64,000 nucleotides of DNA, taken from NCBI GenBank assembly GCA_037379345.1, contig CM074518.1, positions 45,535,586-45,599,585 of the forward strand, read 5' to 3'. Source of the stretch: Perna viridis (lineage: Eukaryota). Position numbers and translations under genes: made by a program. Positions within the stretch are counted from its first letter, which is position 1, and every line of letters begins with the position of its first letter. Shown here in pieces: positions 1,775 to 35,189 of this stretch. The notes beneath the pieces are model-generated. The model was not told the origin of the DNA. It ran no database searches and saw only the letters and a list, made by a program, of their open reading frames with translations.

Positions 1775-1892
1775 TTAAAACAGTGAAGAAGATAAACTTA
1801 TACTTGAGGGTCACATAAAGACATTTTTCTTCATCTATTTCAGATGTAGCAATACAGCCATTAACCAGGACTATTTAGGAACATCTTCAAAC

Positions 1893-4200
1893 ATGGAGGA
1901 CAGTTCTGACCCCTCCAAAGAACTTCTCCCAAATACAGAAGTTACACATCATCTTCAGAACATGCCAACAGATGACTCTAATACAGCTCCAGAAAAAAAA
2001 AATGTCCTGAGCTTTACACAAATGATTTTACTTAATGCTGTTGTATGTGGAGTTGAAGTTTGTGCATGTGCTGGATTCACATATATACCCCCGATGTTGT
2101 TAAAAGCTGGGTACACAGAAGAAAATATGAGTATAATCCTGGGATTAGGGCCATTTTTAGGATTACTAGTTGTTCCTGTTATTGGCAGAGCTAGTGATAA
2201 ATGTAGAAGTCGTTTTGGACGTAGACGACCATTTATTGCGGGAATTTCATTTATTCTAATTCTAACACTAATTTTGATTCCTTATGGGGATGTGTTTTTC
2301 ACGAAACTTTTAGGTGACACTAGCCTTAGTAAAACACTATGCTTATTAAGTTTGACTTTCGGAGTGATCATTTTAGATTTTTCAAGTCAGGCTTGTTTAA
2401 CTCCTTGTGAAGCGCTTTTGTCAGATGCTACAAGAGATACAAACCAACATGAACAAATATTTACTATTTACTCACAAATGATCAGTTTTGGTGGTTTCCT
2501 TGGATACCTAGTCACCGCCATTGACTGGCAATCTTTGAGCATTGGGCAATTCTTTGGGAGCCAAGAAAAAACAGTGTTTTCAGTGTTGGTTGTGTTATTT
2601 GTATTTTTATTCTCAGCTTCAATTATAGTAGCTAAAGAGGAGCCTTATGTTGAAAAAGTGCCAAAGTTTTTACAGTTAGAACTAGATATCCCAGAATTCA
2701 AACAAAGTCCATCAACTCTGGAGTCTGGTTATGAGTCAAGTATCAATTCAGACGATGAAAATTATTTTCCAGGACATATACTTAGGAGACAAAAAAGACA
2801 CAAAAGTTTCTCAAAATCTGGCAAAAGGTCTACACGATTTTTTCCATTATTTATAAATATTATATTTTATCCTGTGATATATATATTGAAGCGAATCAGA
2901 GCTATGACGTTTCTTCAAAACCTTTGTAGAACTGTAGGAGGGGTTGTTTATGATAAACTTCCAGATGTAATTAAGAATTTTTTAGACATACCATATGTAT
3001 TGAAACATTTAGCTATAGCTAATTTCTGTAGTTGGACTTCACTGATGGGGTTCAACTTATTTTTCACTGATTTTGTTGGACAAGCTGTGTATGGAGGCAA
3101 CCCTAATGCTCCAGAAAATTCTATTTTACGCAATCATTATGATGAAGGGGTACGAATGGCAAGTTGGGGATTACTGTTTCATTGTATTACTTCAGCTGTT
3201 TATGCTTTTCTTGTGGAAAGACTAGTAGAAAGATTTGGGACAAGGTGGACTTACTTCTTTGGCATGTTTTCATTTACTGTGGCAATGTTTTGTATAGTAA
3301 TGTGGCGAAACATTTATGTGGTGAATACGATGGCAGCTTTCACTGGTATTGCTTATGCTACTTTAACCATCATTCCTTTCATTCTAGTAACAACATATCA
3401 CACAGAAAAAGAGGTAAGTTTGATGATACAGGTGTCAAGTTATCTAAAGTTTGGGGAGAATGTCTTTAGCATATCTTAAGTATCATTCCTCACTTTACAT
3501 TATAAAATACAAGCGTTATTTAAGACAAACTGTCTATGATTGAATGACTACCAAAAATAAAAAAATAATAGTACCAGCAAAATTTTGTAAGGTAGGTAAA
3601 TACTAACATACACCATTCCAAACACTAAGTATATTTTTAATATCTTATTTATCAAGATATTAGATCATTCAGGGTAAGGAAATGGCAAAATTATTGTGTT
3701 ACAGTTGTTTTAAAAGGATAGATACATATATTACAATAGTACAAAACAACCATTGCTGTGGTTTAGTGGTAGCATTTTGTGATTTGAGTGAAATAGGGAA
3801 TGGCTATCATCTTCAGTTCCAGCTGTACAGAGCCTTTGACATTGTATCAGTCTTAAAAGTTTTAATGATGTACATTTTTACATGTGTAAAGTTTTTATTT
3901 TCTGTCTTTTTTATCGCTATACAGGTATTTTTCTTTGATGTCAACCAAAATGATCAATTACGTGGCGTGGGTGGAGACATGGGGATGTTGGACACAGCCT
4001 ACTTCCTTTCACAGGTTATATTGTCAGGACTCATGGGATACATTGTTCACATGACTGGCACTGTTTTATCCTATATGGTTACTGCAGGAGCAATGGGTGT
4101 ACTGAGCTGTTTCTTTGCTCAGAGAATAATTACCAGTAAACATGACCTCCGTCATGTTGTTTCAAGACCACGAGAAAAAATGAGGATATTGAATATTTGA
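1893..4200 (+). CDS. SLC45A3: Solute carrier family 45 member 3-like MFS sugar/H+ transporter; coding exons 1893-3413 and 3925-4200 (~598 aa)
   Basis: Motifs GVEVCACAGFTYIPPMLL, GRASDKCRSRFGRRRPFI, FFTDFVGQAVYGG, YDEGVR, YHTEKE|VFF and LDTAYFLSQV. Phase-0 intron with GAG|gtaagt at 3413 and tacag|GTA at 3925. Upstream acceptor at 1843. Confidence 0.9.
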
Positions 4201-20504: not shown

Positions 20505-20588
20505 CAATGAATTTTCATATCACAACTCATACGTTTTGCCAGAGCTTGCCGTAACTGCGCAGACATTTTGTATCGCGCTAGACTTCTT
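20505..20588 (+). mobile_element. 5' part of the Penelope-like RT C-terminal fragment split by the Polinton
   Basis: Reads ISQLIRFARACRNCADILYRARLL and continues after the Polinton at 35352 as TSRLLEQGY. An uninterrupted paralogue lies at 36780-37378. Confidence 0.8.
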
Positions 20589-20744
20589 AGTAGTGAGAAA
20601 ATGACAGTTTTGCCCCACCGGCTATTTTCAAACAGAAATCCTGCATAAACCCCCAAAATTTCGGGCTCCGGGTGCAAATGGATCTCGAGCGAGTCAGGAT
20701 GCTGAAAAGTGCTTTGGGGCGAGGCATCAGGGGTGTGGAGGGTC
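20589..20744 (+). repeat. Polinton left terminal inverted repeat (156 bp)
   Basis: Reverse complement of 35190-35345 with 5 mismatches by manual alignment. Confidence 0.95.
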
Positions 20745-22719
20745 TTTTCCGACGGGGAGATGCCTCGTCGGAAAAGATTATTTTCTAGCGTAATTCTTAG
20801 TAAATTATCTCCCCCGATTGTGGGAAAAATAGCATTTCTTTTCAATTTATTCGCGCCGTAGACTAAGGAGAGGAGAAAGAACCCCTCCAGATTTCCTAGA
20901 ATATGCTATTGGTGAGATTTCAATAATTTCCACTGGGGTCCGAAGGCATGCGGGAAAAAATTTGCAAATTATTTAGGCCATATGCAAATTTCCCTCACCT
21001 TCTCCCAAGCAATTACTGGAATTAGGTAGTATAAATATCGGTCGAACCTATTTTCTTAATAATACTATGCACAAGCTTGGTGATCGAGAAATATCACCAT
21101 CCCATCTTAAAAAATTGAATGGTATAAATAAAATCATGCCATCCAAGATAATAATAGATTCCGTTTGCGTAGAAAGCAGGCAGATGCAAAACTTCATCAC
21201 CCGAAAAGCAGAAATTCTGCAATACCCCACTGAAAAGGAGGAAGGGGCAGCTTTGCCAGGGCAAACCGGGGGAAGACGGACTTTGCTGGAGGCACTCCTC
21301 GCGGCAATACGACGCCGATCGGAGGAAAATTTCGGGTGGTCGAGACCATGGGGGAACTTAGGAAAATCGCCAAGGAGGAAGGGGTGAAGGGATATAGTAG
21401 AAAAAATAATTTCGACTTGATGCGGCTCATCGAGACGGCCACCAACCGGAAATTCAAACGTCGGGAAGCATTCACCAGGAAGCAGATCAAGGCGATTGCG
21501 AGGCGGAGGGGGATCACCAATATCTCCAGGTTGAGGAAAGATCAGCTGGTCAAGAAGGTGAAACAGCATTGAAGAGGCGGCAGACCAGATCGAGGTTACG
21601 CACAAGCGGGAGGCCTTGGGAGGGGCATTCCGCACAGTGACTACCAAGCCCAAGACTCAGCAGGACGTGGAGACATTCATCAAGCTGAGCTGGGGAACCA
21701 TCCGAAGCACGATTTCGGAGGGGCTGGCGGAAAAGAGGGGATTGAAAGCGGAGATAATCCTCCACGTGGAGATGGTAAAGATCAGCCCGGTGACCGGCAA
21801 GAATATCTACGCTAACCCAAAGTTCCGGTCGGCCTTGAAGGTCATCACCGAGTCCGCTGACTTGGACGAAGTGATAGCGCAGATGGAGGATAAGGTCATT
21901 GAGAGCTTGGCAAATTACCAGGCTGGGGGAGCGGGTGGATCTTTGGGCACGTTGAGAAGCTGGAGATTCAGCTGAATGAAGACTGGCGTAGACGGAATCG
22001 TGCAGCTACTGGAGCGCATGATGAAGACCACCATCCAGAAGGTAGAAGGAGGCGAGCCGTCCAAACCCCACACTAAGATCCTCCAGAAGCACATACCATC
22101 AGGATTCTGCTACCACATCAAGTGCTTCGATGAGACGGTATACGCCAAGGAGCCGGTGATCCACACCATGCAGCGGGAGGGGGAGGACGTGGCCCAGATC
22201 TTCGTGGACCGGCTTACGAAGGATATCCGGGATATATATCAGCAGAACGATTTCAAGAAGCCCATGGCGATGACGGAGGAAGATAAGATCGCCTTCGCGG
22301 AAGCCGCCAAGTGCTTCATCTGCGACCAAGAGCTTGGGGAGGTTAAGGTGAGGGACCATTGCCACTTCACGGGCAAATTCCGGGGGGCCGCGCATAATGA
22401 ATGCAATCTGAACTATCAGGCGCCGAAATTTATCCCGGTCATCTTCCATAATCTGGCAGGCTACGATGCCCATCTCTTCATCAAGGCACTAGGGGCCACT
22501 GAGGGCAAGATCGACTGCATCCCCAACACTGAGGAGCGCTACATATCATTCACCAAGAGCGTGGCGGTCGGCTCATATACGGATAAGAAGGGGAAGATGA
22601 AGACTCTCTATCAGCACCTGCGATTCATCGATAGTTTCAAGTTCATGGGGGCAAGCCTGCAGAAGCTGGTAGAATCTACGCCGGCCGATGCATTCACCAA
22701 TATGAGGTGGGAATTTGGG

Positions 22720-23720
22720 GCCAAGCCGATGGATCCGGGACTCTTCAAGATCGGGCACTTTGAGACGGAGAATGGGCGAAGCATCACCTTGCGCGAAGTG
22801 ATCGACCGGGAAAAGCTGAAGCATATCGTGACGCACCCGGAAGATTACGAGCTGGGGAGTCGATATATCAAGGGGGAGAAAGTGGATAAGGAGGGGGGAT
22901 GAGGCAGATCATGGAGCAGGTAACCATTTGAATCCTGTCCTGTCCTGCATAAGCTCGCAGGATTACTTGGCCCGCACCAATGCCCTGGGTGAGTGCCCGA
23001 TGCGATATTACCAGCATCACGGCTTTGGGAGATATTGGACCGGCGAGAAGATTGGCCTCCAGAATATCAGCCGCCGCATCCGGCATACCCTCTGCGCAGA
23101 TCATATGATCGATATCGATATGAAGAATGCGCATCCGACTCTGCTCTCCTGGTATTGCCACGAAAATGGCATCGCGTGCACGGGGCTCGACGCATATATC
23201 TCCGACCAGGAGAAGCTAATCGCGGACCTGATGGCCTACGAGGGAATCAAGCGGGACGACGCCAAAACCTACCTGTTCGCCATCATCAATGGGAAGATCG
23301 TCAGGCTCAAGCATGACGCTCCGACCTGGCTCCGGGACTACTAGGGGGGATGAGGCAGATCATGGAGCAGGTAACCATTTGAATCCTGTCCTGTCCTGCA
23401 TAAGCTCGCCTGCGAATCAAAGGAGAAGAGGGGGACGGACTACAATATCGAGGGGACAACCATGAATTACGTCATGTGCTCCCTGGAAAATAAGACTCTG
23501 ATGGCGGCCTTCGACTACCTGACCGAGCAGGAGATCCAGGTGGGGGTGCTAGTATTCGATGGGCTTATGATTCATAAAAAGGGGGTTCCACGCACCAGGC
23601 TGCCCGAGATTCTCCAAGGCTGATCTCAGAGGGTGAAGGAGGTCGTCGGGGCTGATATCACCTTCACGGTCAAGGAGATGGATGAAGGGTACGATATCCC
23701 CACCGCGGCGATCGGGCAGA
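22720..23720 (+). pseudogene. TVpol-like (family A DNA polymerase-related, putative primase-polymerase) domain nested in pPolB
   Basis: GFGRYW..GLQNISRRIRHTL, motif A DIDMKNAHPTLL (23111-23146), motif B RDDAKTYLFAIING (23252-23293), NIEGTTMNYVMCSLENKTL, motif C GVLVFDGLMI (~23543-23572), end FTVKEMD. Recognised by motif only, no search run. Confidence 0.8.
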
Positions 23721-23743
23721 GGTGGACCACTTAGATCTGCTGC

Positions 23744-25554
23744 GGGTACAGGTCAACTCGTACCTTCGGCAACTCGTACCCAACAAACTCGTACCTTTGC
23801 CAACTCGTACCTTTCTATATAAATTTGTATTCTTTATTATAGAGTGTAGAAATGACTCAATCTTAAAAGAAAAAAAAAAGAAAACAAGATGATGAGATAT
23901 ATTTATTTACATACAAAGAATAACATTTAGCATAACAAGCAACAAGAAACAATTATAATGCAGAACAGTAGAAGTTGATATCTTCTTCACCAGTTACTAA
24001 CTGTTGATACAGCTCACTGGAAATACCTACAAAACAAGCATATAAAATATATTTTAAAGTCATTTGACAGAGCGTCTTGTTTTTTGTTCATAATTTTATT
24101 TGTAACTAGACATGTTACCCCAAATTTAGTCATATATTAAATATTTAACAATTTTATTTTACTTGAAATATCTGTAGAAATATATTTATTATTAAAATTA
24201 TGATTTCGTTAAGGAATAGACGTAACCTAATATTGTATAAAATTTGGAATAATACCAACAGCAACAGTGATAATTTTTTTTATGAAACGCGAATCTAAAT
24301 TTAATTAACTTCATGATTGTTGTCACGCTTATTCAATTACACCAACACACGTGCCAGCGAGTTTATTAAACACCCCTGTGTAATAAGATTAAAATGCGCG
24401 TGTAGCAAAATTGAAGTAAACATGGGCCCAATATATACCCTTCCGCATTCTACGGACAATGAAAACATTTGCAAAACATCTACGGTATACAGGGACAGTA
24501 ATCATTAAATTGTATTACATTCTTATATTTATATAAGGAAATTTTCACAATACATAAATTCGTTGAACACTTTTAAAATATAATTATAATCTTGTTATAA
24601 GAGCATAATTTTATTTATTTGTGAAAAAAATAACCAAAAAAAAAAACAACAAAGAACAAAAATAAATTTACCAGTATTACATAATCTGTGCTGCCAGTCA
24701 TTGCAGGTATCACACTGTAGAGCATCTTGGCGTAATGTTACTGTCTTCTTACAATCTGCACACCTTGGTCGCACCATGGTGGCAATCGAAATATTATGCG
24801 AACTTCCATGGATATGTCTTTTATATCGTCATTTTTAGCTTGGTTTTTACAAAATACAAATCTTACATTTCCTTTGAAGCCAACAGATTGTTAGTACAAG
24901 CATTTCTCATACATCTTTGAAGTATCAAACCGGCATCCGAAACCATACTTATTGTTTTTACAATTATTGCTATTTAACCATCGTAAAAACTAATTTGCTT
25001 ATACAAATATTACTCATTAAGCTTTGATGTAGCATAATATAAACTTAATTGTCCTGCTAATCATTAATTACCTATAATTTTTATTTTCATTTTCCAAATA
25101 AATTAATTAGAATGGCCCTTTATTTTTTAATGATCACCGTATTAATTATTTTACTATCAATCAAACGTCTTATTTCTTTTTCAAAATAAATTAATTAGAA
25201 TGACCCTTTATTTTTTTAATGATCACCGTATTAATTAATTTACTATCAATCAAACAAACGTCTTATTTCTTTTTCAAAATTTTATTATTATCCCAATCAA
25301 AATGTATATCTTAATTCTCAAAATGTGCGTCTAATTTTTGCACACAAACACGTGCCATATATATTATAAAAATATAGACTATGTATTAATTCTCAAAATG
25401 TTTATTTTATTTCCCAAAATGTATATTTTATTTCCTAAAATGTATATTTTACACGCATTATCTATTTTGTTATAAATATATAGAAAGGTACGAGTTGGAA
25501 AAGGTACGAGTTTGTTGGGTACGAGTTGCCGAAGGTACGAGTTGACATAGATTC
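23744..25554 (-). mobile_element. Non-autonomous Mutator-like (MULE, Rehavkus/foldback-type) DNA transposon, 1811 bp, inserted in pPolB
   Basis: 9-bp TSD ATCTGCTGC (23735-23743 / 25555-25563). 69-bp subterminal inverted repeats (23752-23820 / 25478-25546, 1 mismatch) built of four AACTCGTACC units. AT-rich interior. Removing it restores DHLDLLLRKGVYPY. Confidence 0.9.
23953..24777 (-). CDS. Spliced 59-aa PHD-finger minigene in the MULE (exons 24777-24672 and 24026-23953)
   Basis: MVRPRCADCKKTVTLRQDALQCDTCNDWQHRLCNT-G|gtaaat ... ttttgtag|GISSELYQQLVTGEEDINFYCSAL*. Splice phases match. C4HC3 pattern with the last Cys missing. Confidence 0.7.
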
Positions 25555-27307
25555 ATCTGCTGCTACGCAAAGGCGTCTACCCCTACGACTATATGGATAG
25601 GTTCGAGAGGCTCCAGGAGACCCAGCTACCACCCAAGGAGGCCTTCCGCAGCCCGCTCACCGGGGAGCATATCAGCGAAGAAGACTACGCGCACGCTCAG
25701 AGGGTCAGGGGGCCTTTGGATGCAAGACCATGCGCGACTATCACGATCTCTATCTCGAGACTGACGTGATCTTGCTCGCCGACGAGAATTTCCGCGAGAT
25801 CTGCATGAAGCATTATGGACTCGCATACGACGCCGCGCTCAAGGTCAGCGGTATCAAGCTGGATCTCATTACCGACCCCGATATGCTGCTCATGGTCGAG
25901 AAGGGGATTCGCGGGGGTCTGACCATGGCGTCTCAGAGATACGCTCGGGCGAATAATCCCTACCTGCAAGATTTCGACCCGAGCAAGCCGACCAACTATC
26001 TGATGTATCTGGACGCTAATAATCTCTACGGGTGGGCCATGTGTCGGCCCCTGCCCACCAGAGATTTCAAGTGGATCGATCCCAGACCTCAGCACGCTCG
26101 GTGAGGAGGATGAGCAAGGATATATCCTGGAGGCGGATCTCGAATATCCCAGGGAGCTCCACGATCGCCATAACGACTATCCCCTCGCGCCGGAATCCAT
26201 GGTGATCAATGGAGTCAGGAAGCTAGTGGCCAACCTCCACGATAAGCAGAAATACGTGGTCCACTACGTAAATCTGAAGAAATACCTTGCCCGGGGTCTG
26301 AAGCTGAAGAAGATCCATCGAGCCATCCGATTCACCCAGAGCCCATGGTTGAGGGGGTAAGTAGAGAACAATACGGCTTGCAGGGCGGCGGCGACCACCA
26401 CCTTCGAGAAGGACTTCTTCAAGCTCATGGTGAACTCAGTATTCGGGAAGACCATGGAGAATATCCGCAAAAGGGTGGACGTCCGGCTGGTCGATAGCGA
26501 GAAGGCTGCCCGGAAGCTGGTGGCCAAGCCTAGCTTCAAGCGCAGGACGGTCTTCAACGAAGATCTGGCTGCCGTCCATCTGCATCGCACCAAGCTGGTC
26601 TTCGATAAACCCATCTACCTAGGATTCTCCATCCTTGATCTATCAAAGACCCTGATGGCCGACTTCGTCTACGACCATCTCAAGTCCCGGTATGGCGACC
26701 GACTCAGCATCTGCTATACGGATACGGATAGCTTGATCTGCGATATCCAGACGGCGGACGTATATAAGGATATGGCGGAGAGTGTGCAGGAGTGCTTCGA
26801 TACGTCCAACTATGCCCCATTCCATGCCTCCGGGATCCAGGCCGGCGTGAATAAGAAGGTGATAGGCAAATTCAAGGATGAGTGCGCCGGCCAGCCGATG
26901 ATCGAGTACGTGGGACTCCGACCGAAAGCATATGCCTTCAAGGTGGATCGCGAGGAGTGCAAGAGGGCTAAGGGCGTGAAGAAGAGCGTGGTCGAGACCT
27001 TTCTGACCTTCGCCGACTATAAGGAGTGCCTGGACACGGGCAGGGAGAAATACCGCGCGATGAATATCATCCGTAGCCGGCTCCACCAGGTCCTTACCCT
27101 AGAGACCTGCAAGAAATCCCTCTCCTCCAATAACGATAAGCGCCACATCCTGCCCGACGGCATCAGCACCCTCGCCCATGGTCACTACCAAATCGTCCAC
27201 GACTAAGGCATCGATCTACCCCCACCCCCTCCCACCCCAGAATTTCTCGAGGGTCCGTAAGCCTCGGGAAATCTTCTCGCTTCGCCGCCCCCATCTATAC
27301 ATAGCAC

Positions 27308-27432
27308 GCTCTGATGGGTGGGGATGCCCATCCCTCCTCTTCGGCACTTGGTAGGCTCTGACGGGTGCAGATGCCCATCCCACCTCTTCGGCACTTGGTA
27401 GGCTCTGACGGGTGTGGATGCCCATCCCTCCC
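27308..27432. repeat. 47-bp tandem repeat (~2.6 copies) between pPolB and protease
   Basis: Unit ctctgacgggtgcagatgcccatcccacctcttcggcacttggtagg starting at 27309, 27356 and 27403. Confidence 0.85.
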
Positions 27433-27439
27433 TAGATAA

Positions 27440-27823
27440 ATGGATAAGCCCCTTACCAATCTCGAGCTCGAGCGAGCCGTGAAGAATCTGCATATCCCGC
27501 ACTTCAGAGGCGTCTTCATGCGCGATGATCTACCATCCAAGCCCAGAGCTCTCGAGTGCGGTATCCTGAATCATGATGATCTGGCAGGCCCCGGGACTCA
27601 CTGGACGTGCTGGTTCAAGGACGGCTCCCGACGAATCTACTTTGGCTCCTACGGACTCCCTCCACCCACCGAGCTGAGACGCTATCTCGGCCTACCGATC
27701 GACCATAATACGGACGAAGTGCAGCCCCGCGGGTCGGTCATCTGCGGCCATCTCTGCCTATACGTGCTGAAGCTGCTGACGGTTGGCTGGTCCTTCGAGG
27801 ACGTCGTCTTCTTCCTGCTATAG
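27440..27823 (+). CDS. Adenain-like cysteine maturation protease (catalytic Asp apparently mutated)
   Basis: FRGVFMRDDLP, GTHWTCW, YFGSYG (usually YFDSYG), Q..GSVICGHLC. Confidence 0.88.
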   Translation: MDKPLTNLELERAVKNLHIPHFRGVFMRDDLPSKPRALECGILNHDDLAGPGTHWTCWFKDGSRRIYFGSYGLPPPTELRRYLGLPIDHNTDEVQPRGSVICGHLCLYVLKLLTVGWSFEDVVFFLL

Positions 27824-27831
27824 ATAAAAAC

Positions 27832-28395
27832 ATGGTCGATAAATTTGGTCTTAGCGTGGGCCTCACCAGAGGGGCCGACCGCCAGGGTGAGATCGAAGAG
27901 GATCTGAATATGAATTTCAACTGCATCGTCAATCTCAAGCATCCGAGGGAGAGCACAGATGCCGCGACGAGGATATTCGTGAAGCAGTCGCTGAAGAAGC
28001 TGGAGGCCGCTGACGATAAGCTGAAGGCGAAAGTCGTCAACTTGCAGGAGGAGATGCGGCGCATGAAGACCGTCGAGAAGGACGATATCACAGCTCTCAG
28101 GAGGAGGCTGGACCAAAAAGTGGATAGATCGGATTGCAGCTGCACGAATGGTGGTCAGATGAACGTTGATCTCGATATGCAGAAATACCGCATCAAAAAT
28201 CTCCCACTTCCCCAGAGCGATAATGAGCCCGTCACCAAAGCCCTATACGATCAGCTGGTGAAGGATATCTACGATGTGAGAGTCAGTGCAGATGCATCAT
28301 CCCTGAGTGCCCCCTTATCTGCCTTTTTGGATGCCCTGGAGAGCATCCGAAAAGCCATGATTATTCCAAGTCGGATTGCTTCACCCATGAGTTGA
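27832..28395 (+). CDS. Putative fibre/spike-like virion protein with coiled coil
   Basis: Two copies of the L(N/D)MxxxxIxNLxxPxxxxxxxTK/R motif flanking a heptad-rich segment. Confidence 0.5.
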   Translation: MVDKFGLSVGLTRGADRQGEIEEDLNMNFNCIVNLKHPRESTDAATRIFVKQSLKKLEAADDKLKAKVVNLQEEMRRMKTVEKDDITALRRRLDQKVDRSDCSCTNGGQMNVDLDMQKYRIKNLPLPQSDNEPVTKALYDQLVKDIYDVRVSADASSLSAPLSAFLDALESIRKAMIIPSRIASPMS

Positions 28396-29286
28396 AAGAT
28401 TTAGGGTAGCCCATCCACTTCACGAATATTTCCTTGACCCCATTCTTGGTGCGTCGCCGCAGAACCTTATCAATGCGATAAACGTCCTGATCGGTGCGCT
28501 GAAGCTCGGGCTCATAGAAGGACCCCTGGATCTCCTCTTCGTTGAAATCCTTGAGGCCATAGGTCGGCGGCTGAGTGCCCAGGACCTGCGAGAGGGTGAG
28601 GACTTCCTCTTTCCAGCGGGGCATATATCCCTTTTCGAAGATGCCCCTCTTGGCGATCCGGACCCTATCTCCAGGCTTGAATCGCGGCGGCTGCATGGGT
28701 GGGAGGTCTCCGTATAGATTCCAGAAGACCTTTGCATGATTCTCCTTCTGGCTGGCGGCGGTGGGGTCATCTTGATGGATCGATGCTTGGAGGTATTATA
28801 CTGCAGGACGAGGCCCTCCAGAATGGGGAGTAAGTGCGCGTGCTATTGGCCGAAAAATATTTGAACATCCTCTCCTTCATGGTGCGATTCCAGTGCTCGA
28901 CGACGCTCGATTTCTCCTTATTCTCCGTGGAGTAGAAATCTATCCCATGCTTCCGGAGCAGCTCCTTCACCTCCCTATTATAGAATTCGGAGCCCTTATC
29001 AGTCCATAGCTTCTGGAGGATGCGATCCTTGAAGACGGTCTGGAAGGCATCGCGCACCGTGATTCCCCTCTTATCCTTGAGCGGCACCAGCCAGCCGTAC
29101 TTGGAGAAGACGTCGATGATGCTCAAGAGAAATTTATATCCTCGATTATCGCGGGAGAAGGCGCTCATATCCACGAGATCGGCGGCCCAGGTATCGTCCA
29201 CTCCGCCCACCACCACGCGCCCTTCTGAAGTTTACGACGGACGGGCTTGTGCAGCTCCTCGGCTAGCCGATCCGACCAGAGCACTT
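28361..29286 (-). pseudogene. Retroviral-type (rve) integrase with C-terminal chromodomain, frameshifted
   Basis: LAEELHKPVRR, WAADLVDM, IDVFSKYGW, LWTDKGSEF, VEHWNRT (D-D-E triad), FKPGDRVRI, FEKGY.PRW, GSFYEPEL, VKWMGYPKSFNSWV. Confidence 0.92.
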
Positions 29287-29761
29287 TCTTTTTTTGACCC
29301 CCAGCCCGAATCTCACCTTGGAGCCGATGAGAGGTCTGACGATGCTTCGATCCATGCGCTCGCGGGCCGTGGGCTGCTGAATACCGCCCAGCTCCTTGAG
29401 CATGGTCTTATCGGAGATGGAATTGCGGGCGGTCGTATCCTGACGCTGAGCATAGCAGAGATCGTGGTGATAGGAGGCCTTATCCACTCGATTGATGGGA
29501 ATCGACCAGGGCTTAGGGATACCGTCTGCCTTCAGACGCTTATGGAGCTTCGTGCCTGGGCCGGTGAAATTATGCCCCGGTAAGTGCATTTCCACGGGCA
29601 TGCGATTGAGCATCTTATTCCAGAGCCCGGCGCCTGATGCAAAGATAAATTGAGACTTCTGGGAGCCGCAGACGGCGCAGGTCCCTGCCTTTCGCAGCCT
29701 CCCGTTGCGGCCCACCACTTCGCGTATCGGTGGGCTTTTGGCATTTGACGCAGTAGATCAT
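29263..29761 (-). pseudogene. Zn-ribbon plus parvovirus-type phospholipase A2 protein (PLA2X), one frameshift near the 5' end
   Basis: MIYCVKCQ...GTCAVCGSQKSQF, calcium-loop HNFTGPG, catalytic DKASYHHDLCY. Confidence 0.85.
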
Positions 29762-29776
29762 ACTTTTTCTATATAA

Positions 29777-30531
29777 ATGGACGTGCACGATATCTCTTAC
29801 GATGCCGTCGCAACCACCAGGAGCAATCACTACCTCCTCCCCCAGCGATCGATTTGCGGTCTGATCGTCGGGAAGTCGGGCTGCGGCAAGACCACGCTGC
29901 TGAATAACCTCCTCTTGCGCTCTGGATGGCTGGACTACGATCGCCTCTACGTCTTCGGGAAGTCTCTGCACCAGCCCATCTACCAACTCTTGCGAGCGGC
30001 TCTGGAGAAGGGTCTGACCAAAGAGGCCATCCGGGAGCTTATCACCCTGCAGGCAAATATCTCCTGCTAGATCTCATCGAGGCTCTTCCCCGAGGGCCTG
30101 GTGGGTTCGATGCCGCCTTCTTCGAGTAGGGCGGAGACGTGCCAGACCCCCGCGAGCTCGATCCGACGGATAAGAATCTGATGGTCTTCGACGATTTGAT
30201 GCTGAGCAAGCAAAATAAGTGCGAGGATTACTACGTGCGCGGTCGCCATAATAACGTCGATTGCTTCTACCTCTGTCAGAGCTACTTCAAGCTTCCGCGG
30301 CAGACCATCCGGGAGAATGCCAACTTCATCTGCCTCTTCCACCAAGACGATCGAAATCTCGATCATATCCATCGCGACTACTGCACGGATCTATCGCTCG
30401 ACCAATTCAAGACCCTCTGCCGCCGATGCTGGTCTGAGCCTCACGGCTTCGTGACCATCGATCTGACCAGCCCCAGAGAAGCCGGAAGATATCGGTTCAA
30501 ACTAGATGAATTCTTCGACCCGGATAAATAA
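29777..30531 (+). pseudogene. FtsK/A32-like genome packaging ATPase (frameshift plus stop)
   Basis: Walker A GKSGCGKTT, Walker B LMVFDD, RGRHNN, LCQSYFKLPRQTIRENAN. Lesions at ~30060-30130. Confidence 0.92.
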
Positions 30532-31094
30532 TGAAACCCATGATGAAAGATTTTCTCTTGGCCCAATTCGTCGAGCAGGCCACCCCTTGGAGGAATCTCT
30601 GCCATAGGTGCTCGCTCGAGCATCGCCTCAAGCAATTCAATGATCTCGGGCGATGCTGGTGCGGAGTGGACCATCCACGAGTCGGTCTGGAGAAGTGCGG
30701 AGATCTCTGCCAGTCTTGCATCTCCCAGCGCCTGCAAGCCGATCTGGCGGAGAGTGGTGAATGCCGATGCGCGTGCAAGCATGGGGAGATCGAGATGGAG
30801 ACTGGAGAGTGCGGGGGTGTGGGCTGGCATGGTTCATGCCTCGTCACGCCAGTACGTATGCAAGACTGGGAGAGTCTGCATGAAGACGTGCCCAGAGGGA
30901 GCCACCACCTGCCGCCTGCATATACATCCAAACGCTCTTCCGAACGCCCCCGAAAACGCCTCCCCAATCGCCCCTCCGAACGCTCCCCAATCGCCCCCTC
31001 GATCGCCGAACGCTCCCCCAATCGCCCCCTCGATCGCCCCTTCAATCGCCCCCACTCGATCAAACCCTCCTCCCTTAGGTCTCACCTGCTTTGA
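30531..31094 (+). CDS. Hypothetical Cys/His-rich protein with Pro/Arg/Ser repeat tail
   Basis: ATAAATA-ATG start, many CxxC/CxC motifs, tail encoded by ~12/24-bp cgctccccaatcgcccc repeats (30930-31065). Confidence 0.45.
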   Translation: MKPMMKDFLLAQFVEQATPWRNLCHRCSLEHRLKQFNDLGRCWCGVDHPRVGLEKCGDLCQSCISQRLQADLAESGECRCACKHGEIEMETGECGGVGWHGSCLVTPVRMQDWESLHEDVPRGSHHLPPAYTSKRSSERPRKRLPNRPSERSPIAPSIAERSPNRPLDRPFNRPHSIKPSSLRSHLL

Positions 31095-31198
31095 GCATAT
31101 CGCCTGGGCAGCCAAGTTTGGCTGGTGGTGGTGATATCTGCCTTTTCGGATGCTCCAGGGTATCCGAAAAAGCCATGATCGTAGGCATCCCTATATAA

Positions 31199-31847
31199 AT
31201 GAGCTTCATCAAGATCACGACGTGAAGCAGAATATCAAGGGGAGTCATCTGAAGAATTGCTTGAAGCTGGGAGTCAGTCGAGACCTCGGAAATTCTTCAG
31301 GCCTGTGGTGGAACCCCGGACGCAGCACTATCTCCAGCTGAGCATGACCAGTCAGGCGGATCATACCTTTGGGCTGCGATCCGAGAGCGGCAGAATTTTC
31401 ATCGGGAATGCTCCGGTCACCTTCGACGGCGACGATATCCTGGTCAATTACCAGCGATATAAGGGGACGCCTGGACTATGGGAGCTCATGATGATGAAGC
31501 GGCCTGAAGACTTCGATATGGACGACCTGGAGGCTTACGGCGATATCCTGAAGAAGACCCATGCGATCTACCAGCATAACGATGCCCTATCCAAGACCCC
31601 CAAGTCGAACCGCAGCCACAAGTGGAAGGCCATCGTATCCAATATCTATGAGGAAGATAAGAAAGGGAGCAGGATTCTCTTCCTCCCATCAGACCCGACG
31701 CAGCTGACCGAGCGCCTAGATCTATGCGCCGAGGCTTTCACGGCTGGAAATACCGGCGTCCGCAATGAGGTCGTAGCCCTCCGAAGTGAGGGGTATATCG
31801 ATACTTGCAGCGCCTTCATCGTAATATCCTTAAATAAACTATGCTAG
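31199..31847 (+). pseudogene. Conserved Maverick protein of unknown function, decayed
   Basis: Starts MSFIKIT after TATATAA. Motifs DHTFGL..FIG, YKGTPGLWEL and LPSDP..L.ERL......AGNTGVRNE recur in Maverick proteins. Confidence 0.7.
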
Positions 31848-32173
31848 TCATGAAGCACGGATATCGCCGCAAATATGCGGTTGAAGGACGAGGAATATTC
31901 GATACCGTCAGGAGTCTGCTGCTCTGGCGAGTCTTCACGTCTGCCGCCGCCAAGACTCTCGGGAAGAAGGCTGCCACAGCCGCCACCAATGCAGCCATCA
32001 AGGGAGTGGAGAAGGGCGCCACCAAAGCCGTAGATCATCTTGTGAGCAGGATCCCCTCCAAGTCTAAGTCCAAGCTCCCACCGAAAGCCGCCGCCATCCT
32101 ATCGAAGCATGAGGGAAATATCCATAACCTCATCGCAGGAGCAGGCATCGCGCGCGTGCATTCCTATCAATAA
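31841..32173 (+). CDS. Basic Ala/Lys-rich virion core protein precursor
   Basis: EGRG-IFD protease-type site followed by an amphipathic helix. Located directly upstream of the MCP. Confidence 0.6.
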   Translation: MLVMKHGYRRKYAVEGRGIFDTVRSLLLWRVFTSAAAKTLGKKAATAATNAAIKGVEKGATKAVDHLVSRIPSKSKSKLPPKAAAILSKHEGNIHNLIAGAGIARVHSYQ

Positions 32174-32174
32174 A

Positions 32175-33389
32175 ATGACCCAGATCATGAATCTCCGTGA
32201 AGACCTAGTCTTCGACGAAAGCATCCAGGGGTACGAATTTTACGAGTACGAGCCCATCACCGGGACGCAGATGAATGGCTCCGGCACCGAGATCCGACTC
32301 AGCATCGAGACGCAGGATCTCTTCCTCCATCCCACCGAAAGCTACCTTTTGCTGGAAGGGAGGCTCCAGAAGAACGATGGGACGGCCTGTGCCGATGCCG
32401 ATCTCATCTCCCTCATCAATAATGCGATGCTCTCCCTCTTCAGATCCATCACCTACAAGCTTTCCGGGCAGACGATCGAGCACCTAAACGATACCGGGGT
32501 CGCGACCACCATGCTGGGCCTTCTCACATATCCCGACGACTTCTCCAAGTCCCAAGGTCTCAACCAGCTATGGGTGAAGGATACCGCCCCCACCGCCGCC
32601 GTCGAGAATCTGGGATTTGCCGCGCGCAAGGCTTACGTCATCGCCAAGCCCGCCAATAAGGGATCCTTCTCTTTCACCATCCCCTTGAAGCATATCTTCG
32701 GCTTTGCCCAGGACTATGATAAGCTGGTCTACGGATTCAAGAATGAGCTCACTCTCGTCCGCGCATCGGATAATGACGCGATCTTTCGAGATAATGCTAA
32801 TATCAACGATGCCGGCAAGATCGTCCTCAGCAAGCTCTCCTGGTTCGTCCCCCACGTGATGCCCTCTGATGACCAGAAGCTGCGGCTCTATAAGACCATC
32901 GAGAGCAAGGTGAAGCTAGATATCGGCTTCCGCATGAGGCAGTGCGATTCGATCGCCGTCCCCGAAAGCGATAATTTCACCTGGCGATTCTCCATCCGGA
33001 GAGACCCCGATGGGTGATCGTCGCCTTCCAGACCGATAAGAGTAACGATCAAGAAGCCAACCCCGCCATCTTCGATCACTGCCGCCTAAAGAATATCTAC
33101 GTCACCCTGAATTCCCAGAGATATCCCGCCGTGGATTATAATGCCTCCTTCACCAACCAAAAGATCTCCAGGCTCTATAAGGAGGCTGCCGATTTCCGCT
33201 GAAAATTCTTCAATATGGATCACCTGGTGAGCAATCCCGGCATCACCCCCGCCGACTTTACCGATCTTCATCCCCTCTTCGTATTCGACGTCTCCAAGCA
33301 GAGCGAGCGCCTCAAGGACTCGACGATCGACGTCTATATCCGAGCCCAATTCGACCGCAATGTCGCCGCCAATACCCAAGCCTACGCAC
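32175..33389 (+). pseudogene. Double jelly-roll major capsid protein (frameshift ~33000, stop at 33200, 3' deletion)
   Basis: DESIQGYEFYEYEP, LHPTESYLLLEGRL, IPLKHIFGFAQDYDK, LSWFVPHV, VAFQT, FDHC..NSQRYP, PLFVFDVSKQSERLK. Confidence 0.88.
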
Positions 33390-33740
33390 CGGACCGTCCT
33401 AGGATTCAACGAGGAGACCTATATCTACGATGCCGACACCCACAGATATTTCGAGAGCGAGAGCATCGTGAATATCATCAACGTCAATAGCATCCTGGTG
33501 AATAGCGATATCGTCAGCGGAAGCTACGTCGACGGCGTGCAGCAGCTCGTCATCTATAGCTTCTTTCCCAACGTCTCCCCCGGCATGAAGATCGTCCAGA
33601 ATCCCAAGAATCTGATCTACCTTCCGGTGACCGTGAGCACCATCCACTCCATGGCGACGCATATCACGGATCAGGACGGCCTGCCCATCGATCTCCGCGG
33701 CGAGCACTTGACCATGCGCTTCCACCTTCGCGAGATATAA
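33390..33740 (+). pseudogene. Minor capsid (penton) protein, C-terminal half only
   Basis: RTVLGF, SESIVNIINVNSILVNSDIVSGSYVDG, IYSFFPNVSPGMKIVQNP.NLIYLPV, TDQDGLPIDLRGE. Confidence 0.85.
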
Positions 33741-33744
33741 ATAA

Positions 33745-34324
33745 ATGACGTATTCCGAGTATGGTCTGAACCTGAGCTCAAGCCAGAGGGATAAGCTCAG
33801 ACTCGCAGCCAAGCGCAAGCCAAGCCCCGTGAGTATCCGACTCTCGCACGAGAATCTCTCGGGCAACGATAAGTTGCTGCTCACGAATCGGCAGATCCAG
33901 AAGATCAATAAGCTCAAGAGGACCGGCGAAGGTGGTATGATCTTGGAGATGAGCACCACCCAGCTGAAGCAAAATAGAAAGAGGGTGGATTCCTCCCCAT
34001 GCTCGCCGGCTTGGCGATGAGACCCTCCCCATGGTAGCGAAGACCGTCCTTCCAGCCTTGGGAGTGGGTGCCTTGAGCGGCCTAGGTGGAGTCGCAGTCA
34101 ATAAAGCCTTGGGGTCTGGATTATACCTCAAGAAGGGTGGTCAGGTCTGCTGCGTGGAACCTCACGGGAAAGGTTTATATCTCTCCCAAACCCGACTGCC
34201 GAAGACCGTCCAAGGCGACGGCTTATATCTGAAGCGCGGCGGTAAGATCTACGATGGCTCTGGGTTGATCCTAGGTCCCAATAGCCCCTTCAAGGACGTC
34301 CCCCTCCTTGGCATGCTTCTCTAG
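33745..34324 (+). pseudogene. Virion core polyprotein precursor with multiple GxG/GG cleavage-type sites (frameshift ~33980)
   Basis: LLLTNRQIQKI, EGGFLPML, GSGLYL/GKGLYL/GDGLYL, C-terminal GLILGPNSPFKDVPLLGMLL. Confidence 0.75.
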
Positions 34325-34336
34325 ACCCCTAGATAA

Positions 34337-34698
34337 ATGAGTGACGAAGTAGATGATAGACTCGAGGATTTCTTAGAGTCTGAGGTCCAGAAATATGCCC
34401 ACATGCTGCGCATCTATAAGCGGTTGGATAAAGTGGTCTCCATTGCCCTATCCGCGGCTTCCATCAGCAGTCTGCTGCTTACCAGCGGCACCATGGGATC
34501 TGCTTTGACCGGAGTAGGCGCTGCTGCTTCCCTTCCCCTTGGATCCCTCGCTTGCCTAAGTGCTACGGCCATACTGGTGCTCTCGCTGATCGCCAAGTGA
34601 ATCGCCAAGAAGAAGAAGAAGCATCTTGATACTCTCCGCTTGGCCAGGTCCTATCAGTCTCAGCTTCCGGGTGAAGATAGTGCCCCGCAGTCTACCTG
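34337..34698 (+). pseudogene. Small hydrophobic-hairpin membrane protein of Mavericks (stop at 34600)
   Basis: Long Gly/Ala/Ser-rich hydrophobic segment LTGVGAAASLPLG, followed by KKKKH after the in-frame stop. Confidence 0.55.
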
Positions 34699-34747
34699 AA
34701 GAATTACTACGATGGAAAGGATCGGTTACGCCAGCCCTCGTCTCCTT

Positions 34748-35146
34748 TCAGCGAAGATCTAGCCAAGCATTCCCAGGGCACTCGCTGATTCCCACCTCAA
34801 ATATCTTTTCCGATGGGTTCATCCCATAGTTATCGATCTTGAGGAGATGCCACTTTTTCCGCGGTATCCGACCCATCTCCCGGATCATTCTGCTGCACGC
34901 CCAGACCTTGGTCTTTACCTCTTTCCTCTCCAGCGTCAGAATCATACCCTCCCCATACTGACTTTTCGTCTCCTGGACGTGCACCACTTGGAATATTTCC
35001 CAAGGTAGGTCGCGCCACCTTAGAATCGGCTCGCGTCTGGCTTCCCTTTGAGCCTGTGCCCTCTTTCTCACCTCCTCGTCGCTCTCTTCCCGCCCGGAAC
35101 CTAGCAATCGGACGTGCCGATCCATCTTTTGAGATTCGGAATCCAT
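34748..35146 (-). CDS. Hypothetical 132-aa protein, possible OB-fold ssDNA-binding protein
   Basis: Intact ORF preceded by AATAAATC-ATG. Beta-rich pattern WRDLP..FQVVHVQETKSQYGEGMILTL..KVWA. Confidence 0.5.
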   Translation of the reverse strand: MDSESQKMDRHVRLLGSGREESDEEVRKRAQAQREARREPILRWRDLPWEIFQVVHVQETKSQYGEGMILTLERKEVKTKVWACSRMIREMGRIPRKKWHLLKIDNYGMNPSEKIFEVGISECPGNAWLDLR

Positions 35147-35189
35147 GATTTATTGGAATCCAAATTTTTTTAATCTATTTTGGTGGTTG

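What the first reader, a model, noticed from the sequence alone, without database searches (positions are those of the whole stretch)
22720..23720. A polymerase inside a polymerase: family-A-like TVpol domain inserted in the Polinton protein-primed PolB
Seen in sequence: the pPolB frame runs without a break from LRFIDSFKFMGASLQKLVESTPADAFTNMRWEFG into ~330 extra codons. pPolB resumes at EVDHLDLLLRKGVYPYDYMD once the MULE is removed, one frameshift away. The extra segment has GRYW..GLQNISRRIRH, DIDMKNAHP, RDDAK..F..ING and VLVFDGLMI in order, and its GC level and codon style look like the rest of the virus. Established knowledge: in Maverick pPolBs only a few residues separate these two flanks. 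The motifs correspond to motifs A, B and C of TVpol, a PolA/T7-polymerase-related family normally found standalone or fused to SF3/D5 helicases in virophages, Polinton-like viruses and giant viruses. Inference: the ancestral virus encoded one polypeptide with two polymerase active sites. The TVpol could supply priming, second-strand synthesis or RNA synthesis. I know of no description of this architecture. No intein or intron signatures are visible at the borders.
Basis: partly seen in the sequence, partly recalled or inferred. Interest (0 to 1): 0.95.

Follow-up and report, generated by a model that had tools for sequence, protein, structure and literature searches.

The report
Second polymerase nested inside viral polymerase
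A group of animal Maverick (Polinton) endogenous viruses carries a whole family-A polymerase domain inserted into the proofreading domain of its unrelated family-B replicase, so that one protein holds two polymerase active sites, and the inserted module seems to move between virus lineages.

Summary
Confirmed and extended. The window holds a broken Maverick (20589-35345) whose protein-primed PolB carries about 320 extra codons between exonuclease motifs II and III. The extra segment is a TV-Pol (family-A) polymerase domain: its AlphaFold model matches the Zamilon virophage replicase and Klenow fragment. It is no artefact. Six sister copies span both junctions, and natural stop-free proteins of 1,505-1,644 aa with the same insert occur in several database clusters, one with Mytilus members. 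Catalytic motifs of both polymerases are kept, dN/dS in the insert is 0.09-0.28, and a model of a natural fusion keeps a phi29-like fold around the insert. New here: insert-bearing pPolBs are not one clade (AU p 0.0003), none of the 119 nearest pPolBs has the insert, one pair shows an exchange tract, and a different pPolB type carries a TV-Pol at another site. Best reading: a tethered accessory primase-polymerase on a cassette that spreads by recombination. Activity is untested; a selfish self-copying cassette is not excluded. Seven literature searches showed no description of this architecture.

The parts
20589..35345 (.). Maverick/Polinton element, AGTAGT ends, 6-bp target duplication CTTCTT (20583-20588, 35346-35351)
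20589..20744 (+). left terminal inverted repeat (156 nt, 5 mismatches to the right one)
35190..35345 (-). right terminal inverted repeat
21136..27206 (+). broken pPolB gene (Rho_N-like repeats, terminal-protein region, EndoVII, exonuclease, polymerase), homologous to natural 1,644-aa P0003
22273..22410 (+). endonuclease VII (His-Me finger) domain inside the exonuclease region
   Evidence: Pfam PF02945 E 3e-6
22447..22467 (+). exonuclease motif II (HNLAGYD)
   Evidence: motif name recalled
22624..22719 (+). pPolB flank in front of the insert (FIDS...EFG)
22720..23736 (+). inserted TV-Pol (family-A) polymerase domain, broken in this copy by a duplication, stops and frame changes
23027..23086 (+). 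beta-hairpin arginine (GRYW) and following invariant arginine (RIRH)
23111..23137 (+). TV-Pol motif A, DIDMKNAHP
   Evidence: both aspartates in 114 of 114 aligned rows
23252..23293 (+). TV-Pol fingers motif RxxxK ... NG
   Evidence: lysine in 114 of 114 rows
23549..23569 (+). TV-Pol motif C, LVFDGLM
   Evidence: aspartate in 112 of 114 rows (2 gaps)
22892..22958 (+). 67-bp exact duplicate of 23343-23409, not seen in the open frames of sister copies
23744..25554 (.). nested AT-rich element with 70-bp inverted repeats and 9-bp target duplication ATCTGCTGC (Mutator-like by these marks only)
25569..25768 (+). pPolB resumes: KGVYPY motif to exonuclease motif III (YLETDV)
26012..26732 (+). pPolB polymerase motifs DANNLY, KLMVNSVFG, YTDTDS
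28770..29231 (-). retroviral-type integrase core (broken gene)
   Evidence: Pfam rve E 4e-9
29266..29757 (-). phospholipase A2-like domain
   Evidence: Pfam PF08398 E 2e-8
30130..30528 (+). A32-like packaging ATPase (part)
   Evidence: Pfam Pox_A32 E 2e-5
32046..33014 (+). double jelly-roll capsid protein (part)
   Evidence: Pfam PF21738 E 4e-21

Best explanation
A TV-Pol polymerase domain, taken from a PolA-helicase replicase of a small DNA virus and stripped of its helicase, sits in a surface loop of the pPolB exonuclease domain between motifs II and III (shown). Both folds are kept and both catalytic sets are under selection (shown by model, motifs, dN/dS). It is most likely an active accessory primase-polymerase tethered at the replication fork: it starts short DNA chains on single-stranded template (the displaced strand, the excised single strand, or downstream of a block) and hands the 3' end to the processive pPolB, as a supplement to terminal-protein priming, which appears to be retained (inferred). 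The domain plus short flanks behaves as a cassette that is passed between Maverick lineages by recombination in the conserved exonuclease motifs on either side (scattered distribution shown; mechanism inferred). Separate odds: architecture real 0.98; domain catalytically active 0.85; lateral spread 0.8; priming/restart as the role 0.45.
For: Six of 15 non-self matches in the genome span both junctions; L006 gives a natural 481-aa stop-free frame across both. Ten of 23 hits of the long-protein search are pPolB fusions, with full-length members of 1,505-1,644 aa. 43 of 44 fusion proteins checked match all three TV-Pol motif patterns. pPolB exonuclease, polymerase and vOTU-like Cys/His motifs are kept in the full-length fusions. 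Insert dN/dS 0.09-0.28 in 12 of 12 genome copies against L006, N flank 0.07-0.20 in 9. Insert model pLDDT 93: Zamilon replicase E 2e-20, TM 0.74, Klenow Z 15.8, rmsd 4.2, 280 aligned. Model of natural fusion P0010 (pLDDT 84): phi29 polymerase Z 19.5, rmsd 3.1, 519 of 567 residues over model 50-1138, and model 280-567 on family-A polymerases Z up to 16.1. One clade of insert-bearing pPolBs rejected: C part p 0.0006, N part p 3e-7, whole protein without insert columns, mixture model, p 0.0003. P0060/P0075: insert 90% against 64% and 79% in the flanks, tract about aa 619-1068. A natural recombinant between the two families lies on C14. TV-Pols were predicted to be prim-pols (PMC2579912) and one member, CCPol, primes DNA de novo with a partner (PMC7581432).
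Against: No activity was measured. CCPol alone only extends primers and needs the partner MP; no such partner was identified, and the usual helicase is gone. Most pPolBs work without the insert (0 of 119 nearest), including a co-resident family with the same downstream gene order, so it is dispensable. Selection on the domain would also be seen if it served only its own spread. The dN/dS values share one reference and are not independent. The insert tree does not reject the pPolB-like grouping of five fusions (p 0.32), and its bootstrap had not settled. The insert-less rows in the trees were my choice (31 and 22 of 118) and the trees are unrooted.
Confidence: 0.45

Rival explanations
1. Selfish self-copying cassette: the domain is tolerated in a permissive loop and is kept active because it copies its own coding sequence into breaks at the empty site of co-resident Mavericks (homing without its own nuclease, perhaps at cuts by the neighbouring EndoVII domain).
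For: Same site in at least four pPolB lineages; exchange tract centred on the insert with co-transferred flanks; second insertion (P0202) also lies next to a nuclease-like segment; mobility of PolA/AEP genes by collaborative homing is hypothesised in bioRxiv 10.64898/2026.10.13.758929 (section 13 read).
Against: No nuclease inside the cassette (model residues 2-315 are PolA fold). EndoVII is present in insert-less pPolBs too and lies outside the P0060/P0075 tract. The insert is rare and has not swept the co-resident family. Whole-gene recombination also occurs, so tracts need no homing.
Confidence: 0.25
2. Primer-dependent accessory polymerase: lesion bypass, gap filling (for example at integration ends) or strand restart from an existing 3' end, with no de novo priming.
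For: All evidence for an active, selected domain; CCPol without MP is primer-dependent; no SSB-like partner or helicase found among Pfam hits of the element; terminal-protein and vOTU-like motifs persist.
Against: Nearest relatives are N-terminal modules of helicases, the position where primases sit.
Confidence: 0.22
3. History only: the insert is ancestral to this pPolB group and was lost repeatedly and cleanly.
For: Unrooted trees cannot tell gain from loss; the insert tree does not reject the five-fusion clade (p 0.32).
Against: Needs 7 clean losses among 29 rows against 4 changes, each restoring a spacing of about 41 aa (94 of 111); does not explain an insert more alike than both flanks.
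Confidence: 0.12
4. The domain is catalytically idle and serves as a DNA-binding or processivity module.
For: No assay; position on the exonuclease domain could contact DNA.
Against: Metal-binding aspartates and the fingers lysine are kept in 43 of 44 fusions checked.
Confidence: 0.05
5. Post-integration rearrangement or assembly artefact of this copy, or an intron/intein that is removed.
For: The window copy is heavily broken.
Against: Same junctions in six sister copies, in ten protein clusters and next to pPolB sequence in 5 JGI loci; no Hint-like fold or Pfam Hint match; in-frame codon selection.
Confidence: 0.02

Closest known systems
TV-Pol family (Iyer, Abhiman, Aravind 2008, PMC2579912): Sputnik/Zamilon V13-type PolA-SF3 helicase, PolA-SF2 fusions of Polinton-like viruses
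   Same: Minimal family-A core with thumb, hairpin arginine, two palm aspartates, RxxxK fingers; top structural match is the Zamilon replicase; nearest sequences (38-49%) are fused to origin-binding-type SF2 helicases.
   Different: No helicase; embedded inside another polymerase. The 2008 paper states that TV-Pols never show fusions to nuclease domains; here one sits inside a 3'-5' exonuclease domain.
Maverick/Polinton pPolB with inserted nuclease domains (HNH, VSR; bioRxiv 10.1101/2023.08.22.554363; PMC11161782)
   Same: pPolB tolerates inserted domains; EndoVII is present here.
   Different: The passenger is a second polymerase of an unrelated family, not a nuclease, and it is present or absent at one fixed loop across lineages.
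pPolB-SF1 helicase fusions (Tlr1-like, transpovirons, Oxyrrhis OmPLV; PMC11161782, PMC12721341)
   Same: Replicase fusions in the same virus group.
   Different: Those are end-to-end fusions with a helicase; this is a nested insertion of a polymerase with the exonuclease kept.
CCPol-MP primase of SCCmec (PMC7581432, PMC10061031)
   Same: TV-Pol-class family-A domain without exonuclease; gives the biochemical precedent for priming.
   Different: Needs a separate SSB-like partner; bacterial; no partner identified here.
Elements with two separate replicase genes (bioRxiv 10.64898/2026.10.13.758929, section 13)
   Same: PolA acquired by an element that has pPolB; replicase mobility proposed.
   Different: Separate genes there; one open frame here.
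Inteins and homing-endonuclease cassettes in polymerase genes (recalled)
   Same: Fixed insertion site, patchy distribution, co-transferred flanks.
   Different: No splicing domain and no nuclease in the cassette.

Membership tests
TV-Pol | N-terminal thumb of two antiparallel helices | tested here: met
   helices 30-38 and 57-70 in the model; whole-domain match to Zamilon replicase TM 0.74; feature list
TV-Pol | beta-hairpin with conserved arginine | tested here: met
   strands 76-83 and 90-92; R89 in 112 of 114 rows
TV-Pol | RRM palm with two conserved aspartates | tested here: met
   D116/D118 114 of 114, D264 112 of 114; Klenow Z 15.8
TV-Pol | fingers with RxxxK | tested here: met
   RD[DE]xK pattern in 43 of 44 fusions; K167 114 of 114
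TV-Pol (helicase-fused replicase) | C-terminal D5/SF3 or SF2 helicase in the same protein | tested here: not met
   insert is followed directly by pPolB sequence; typical context, not part of the domain definition
TV-Pol | primase/polymerase activity | not testable with these tools
   needs an assay
T7-like single-subunit RNA polymerase | N-terminal promoter-binding domain beyond the catalytic core | tested here: not met
   insert is about 320 aa and all core; T7 RNAP Z 10.2 against Klenow 15.8; need for the extra domain
CCPol-MP primase | separate SSB-like partner gene | tested here: inconclusive
   no such Pfam hit among 28 frames scanned, but several small genes of the element are unassigned
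Maverick/Polinton | terminal inverted repeats, AGT-type ends, 6-bp target duplication | tested here: met
   criteria recalled
Maverick/Polinton | pPolB, rve integrase, packaging ATPase, double jelly-roll capsid | tested here: met
protein-primed PolB | phi29-like exonuclease and polymerase fold with catalytic motifs | tested here: met
   phi29 Z 19.5, 519 aligned; motifs
protein-primed PolB | working terminal protein with linking residue | tested here: inconclusive
   Ser/Thr-Gly loop and vOTU-like Cys/His present in six fusions; region not modelled; criteria from PMC11161782
intein | Hint domain and splice-junction residues | tested here: not met
   junction residues variable, no Cys/Ser...His-Asn pattern (pattern recalled); model fully PolA fold
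homing-endonuclease cassette | nuclease encoded within the mobile tract | tested here: not met
   EndoVII (aa 511-563 of P0075) lies outside the tract that starts near aa 619 and occurs in insert-less pPolBs
self-splicing or spliceosomal intron | removal from the transcript | tested here: inconclusive
   3 and 7 RNA reads only; in-frame selection argues for coding

The most novel reading that the evidence does not exclude
A polymerase domain that acts as a site-specific mobile element: a non-splicing, nuclease-free family-A cassette that has entered protein-primed family-B replicases at least twice at different sites and spreads between virus lineages by copying itself into the empty site, while yielding a two-active-site replicase able to prime both by protein and de novo.
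Probability: 0.25. Interest if true: 0.93.

Novelty: new variant of a known kind. Interest (0 to 1): 0.8.

Why it matters
How Mavericks start and finish replication has never been worked out biochemically, and eukaryotic-virus TV-Pols have, by the 2020 CCPol paper, no biochemical characterisation. A natural single-chain A+B polymerase with insert-less near relatives gives a built-in comparison for both questions. It also shows a step by which replicases are exchanged in small DNA viruses (pPolB versus PolA), namely one nested in the other, and a domain that spreads like an intein with neither splicing nor nuclease. A tethered primase plus strand-displacing polymerase would also be of interest as an enzyme.

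Tried and rejected
Pfam, PHROGs and PDB sequence searches gave nothing significant for the insert, which explains why annotation misses it. ESM Atlas gave only sub-0.9 leads for the insert region, one with DNA_pol_A on 11% of members, and for the P0202 nuclease-like segment unnamed mollusc/Preplasmiviricota clusters, so its VSR label stays recalled. RNA: no RNA holder listed; two RNA runs gave 3 and 7 reads, uninformative; one 5,443-nt contig of uncertain kind (X1) covers the insert, and no listed joint removes it cleanly. IMG/VR: 0 of 52 loci have pPolB flanks; JGI: 5 of 80. A search for relatives of the P0202 insert found only itself among 1,833 candidates. AU tests on the insert tree did not reject the five-fusion clade (p 0.32) or P0202 grouping with the Maverick inserts (p 0.12). 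A test of 20-30-aa flanks for co-transfer in P0003, P0004 and P0008 showed best matches mostly to insert-less proteins, so no support there. dS was saturated for the four JGI loci. In one search loci were translated on the + strand only, so minus-strand copies were not read there. Two look-ups of earlier scan findings returned nothing. No complex prediction was sent: no binding claim is made.

Full report
The element. The window holds a Maverick from 20589 to 35345: GC about 55% against about 31% around it, 156-nt terminal inverted repeats with 5 mismatches, AGTAGT ends and a 6-bp target duplication, and Pfam matches to integrase, packaging ATPase and double jelly-roll capsid. Its pPolB gene is broken by stops, frame changes, an internal deletion near 21978, a 67-bp duplication and a nested 1.8-kb element with a 9-bp target duplication. 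The closest named proteins are from Mytilus, so a mytilid-like host is my inference.

Six of 15 non-self matches in the same genome span both junctions. L006 gives a natural 481-aa frame from the N flank through the insert into KGVYPY, and the C14 copy matches P0003 residues 681-1135 without a stop. The same genome holds an insert-less family in which P0003 residues 22-759 abut 1079-1595 directly. Among the 119 nearest pPolBs by the C-terminal part none matches the insert, and the spacing across the site is 41 aa in 94 of 111 measurable proteins against 348-410 aa in 7 fusions.

Natural fusions elsewhere. A search of proteins of 843-2,405 aa gave 23 hits among 1,471 candidates; ten carry pPolB sequence next to the insert, nine on both sides. 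Full-length examples are P0003 (1,644 aa; cluster of 20 with Mytilus members), P0004 (1,559), P0005 (1,538), P0057 (1,564), P0060 (1,505) and P0075 (1,550); hosts of all but the first cluster are not named. Five of 80 JGI loci and 0 of 52 IMG/VR loci show the insert beside pPolB sequence. The other hits are PolA-like domains in front of SF2 (origin-binding type, 38-49% identity) or SF3 helicases; the family is large, 3,651 representatives at E up to 0.001.

Identity of the insert. Profile libraries miss it. The AlphaFold model (pLDDT 93.2, pTM 0.89) matches Klenow fragment first in the PDB (Foldseek E 1e-7; VIA Z 15.8, rmsd 4.2, 280 aligned; T7 RNA polymerase Z 10.2, best family-B chain 7.2) and the Zamilon virophage replication protein first among viral models (E 2e-20, TM 0.74). 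The four features by which Iyer et al. define TV-Pol (PMC2579912, parts 1-2 of 3 read) are met. Five residues after the motif A aspartate, where DNA polymerase I has its sugar-gate glutamate and T7 RNA polymerase a glycine (recalled), the family has histidine in 112 of 114 rows, so sugar choice cannot be predicted.

Both enzymes look alive. 43 of 44 fusion proteins that cover the insert match all three TV-Pol motif patterns (these include near-identical cluster members). Exonuclease and polymerase motifs of pPolB are kept in the full-length fusions, as are the vOTU-like Cys and His and a Ser/Thr-Gly loop in the terminal-protein region (criteria from PMC11161782, part 2 and passages). Against L006, dN/dS in the insert is 0.09-0.28 in 12 of 12 genome copies, and 0.07-0.20 in the N flank of 9; the values share one reference. 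A model of natural fusion P0010 (1,162 aa, pLDDT 83.8, pTM 0.73) superposes on phi29 polymerase over 519 of 567 residues (Z 19.5, rmsd 3.1, model range 50-1138) while residues 280-567 superpose on family-A polymerases (Z up to 16.1). The split exonuclease domain thus closes around the insert in the model; the relative orientation of the two active sites was not examined.

The insert moves. The inserts form one group (90/85; 100/99 with fragment P0098) inside the PolA-SF2 relatives (bootstrap not settled). Their host pPolBs do not: P0004 and P0008 are 70-77% identical to insert-less proteins in the C part but 56-58% to P0003, and one clade is rejected for the C part (8 against 31 rows, p 0.0006), the N part (7 against 31, p 3e-7) and whole proteins without insert columns under a mixture model (7 against 22, p 0.0003, four changes forced by starred branches). 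An ancestral insert would need 7 losses on that tree. I chose the insert-less rows from 118, and the trees are unrooted. P0060 and P0075 are 90% identical in the insert but 64% and 79% in the flanks, with a high-identity tract from about residue 619 to 1068 that takes in short flanks but not EndoVII. Against this, the insert tree does not reject the pPolB-like grouping of five fusions (p 0.32). Recombination between families is real in this genome: the C14 element joins an insert-bearing pPolB (88-90% to the window) to a downstream module 92-96% identical to the insert-less family. Downstream gene order is the same in both families as far as compared, so the insert does not replace a visible separate gene.

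A second insertion. P0202 (1,766 aa; two full-length records on contigs of 9.9 kb) is a different pPolB type (Pfam DNA_pol_B_2 E 2e-34, which P0003 lacks) with a 31%-identical TV-Pol at residues 873-1171, behind exonuclease motif III, within a segment that resembles the VSR nuclease of mollusc pPolB2 (resemblance recalled; not confirmed). All motifs of both polymerases are present. The site differs, so it is a separate insertion event; a separate source of the domain is favoured by the tree (98/89) but not proven (p 0.12). It rests on one cluster.

How it most likely works. TV-Pols occupy the primase position in front of helicases and were predicted to be prim-pols; the one tested member, CCPol, primes de novo with its partner MP and only extends primers without it (PMC7581432 passages; PMC10061031 passages). 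A strand-displacing pPolB makes single-stranded template without a helicase (phi29 TPR2), so a TV-Pol tethered to it could prime the displaced or excised strand or restart behind a block. I put this at 0.45, a primer-dependent repair role at 0.22, a selfish self-copying cassette at 0.25, a scaffold at 0.05 and artefact or splicing at 0.02. Transcription is unlikely because the domain is the bare core. None of this is measured.

What is in print. Seven searches aimed at the architecture and passages of PMC11161782, PMC12721341, PMC8502044, PMC13215967, bioRxiv 2024.03.25.586562, 2023.08.22.554363, 2026.06.19.733378 and 2026.10.13.758929 (passages and section 13) showed PolA-helicase, AEP-helicase and pPolB-helicase fusions, nuclease insertions in pPolB, and elements with two separate replicase genes, but no PolA inside pPolB. 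I read no supplements and no Repbase or Dfam entries, and most subscription journals are outside the library; a prior mention there is possible.

Verdict. Real, conserved, present in several lineages and apparently undescribed: a new variant built from two known polymerase families, with an unexpected mobile behaviour. Interest 0.8.

Noticed in passing
P0202 / P0352 (Logan contigs, no locus held): Different pPolB type with a TV-Pol domain and a Cys-rich finger inserted behind exonuclease motif III, a second insertion site.
   Followed up: partly
G000:C14:1300200-1315777 (L181, L074, L075): Natural recombinant Maverick: insert-bearing pPolB of the window's family joined to the integrase/capsid module of the insert-less family.
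   Followed up: partly
window 20509-20588, 35346-35397 and 36877-37000: The Maverick is inserted into a host repeat; a second, empty copy of that repeat lies 1.5 kb downstream.
   Followed up: partly
window 23744-25554: AT-rich element with 70-bp inverted repeats built of short internal repeats and a 9-bp target duplication; no frame of 100 aa or more inside.
   Followed up: partly
window 40551-42605 (+): 684-aa single open frame in host-like DNA, coiled-coil-rich with one hydrophobic stretch, no Pfam match above cut-off.
   Followed up: no
window 1779-3479 (+): Major-facilitator transporter open frame (Pfam MFS_1).
   Followed up: no
P0004 and P0281: An insert-bearing and an insert-less pPolB share a Cys-rich stretch of about 48 aa just in front of the same loop, although they are not sisters in the trees.
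   Followed up: no
P0089: Mytilus coruscus protein in which the insert is followed by sequence with no match to the pPolB C part but resembling the start of a downstream Maverick gene; may be a deletion or a gene-model join.
   Followed up: no
window 30928-31065 and 27299-27439: Short tandem repeat arrays inside the Maverick (12-bp-based and 47-bp units).
   Followed up: no
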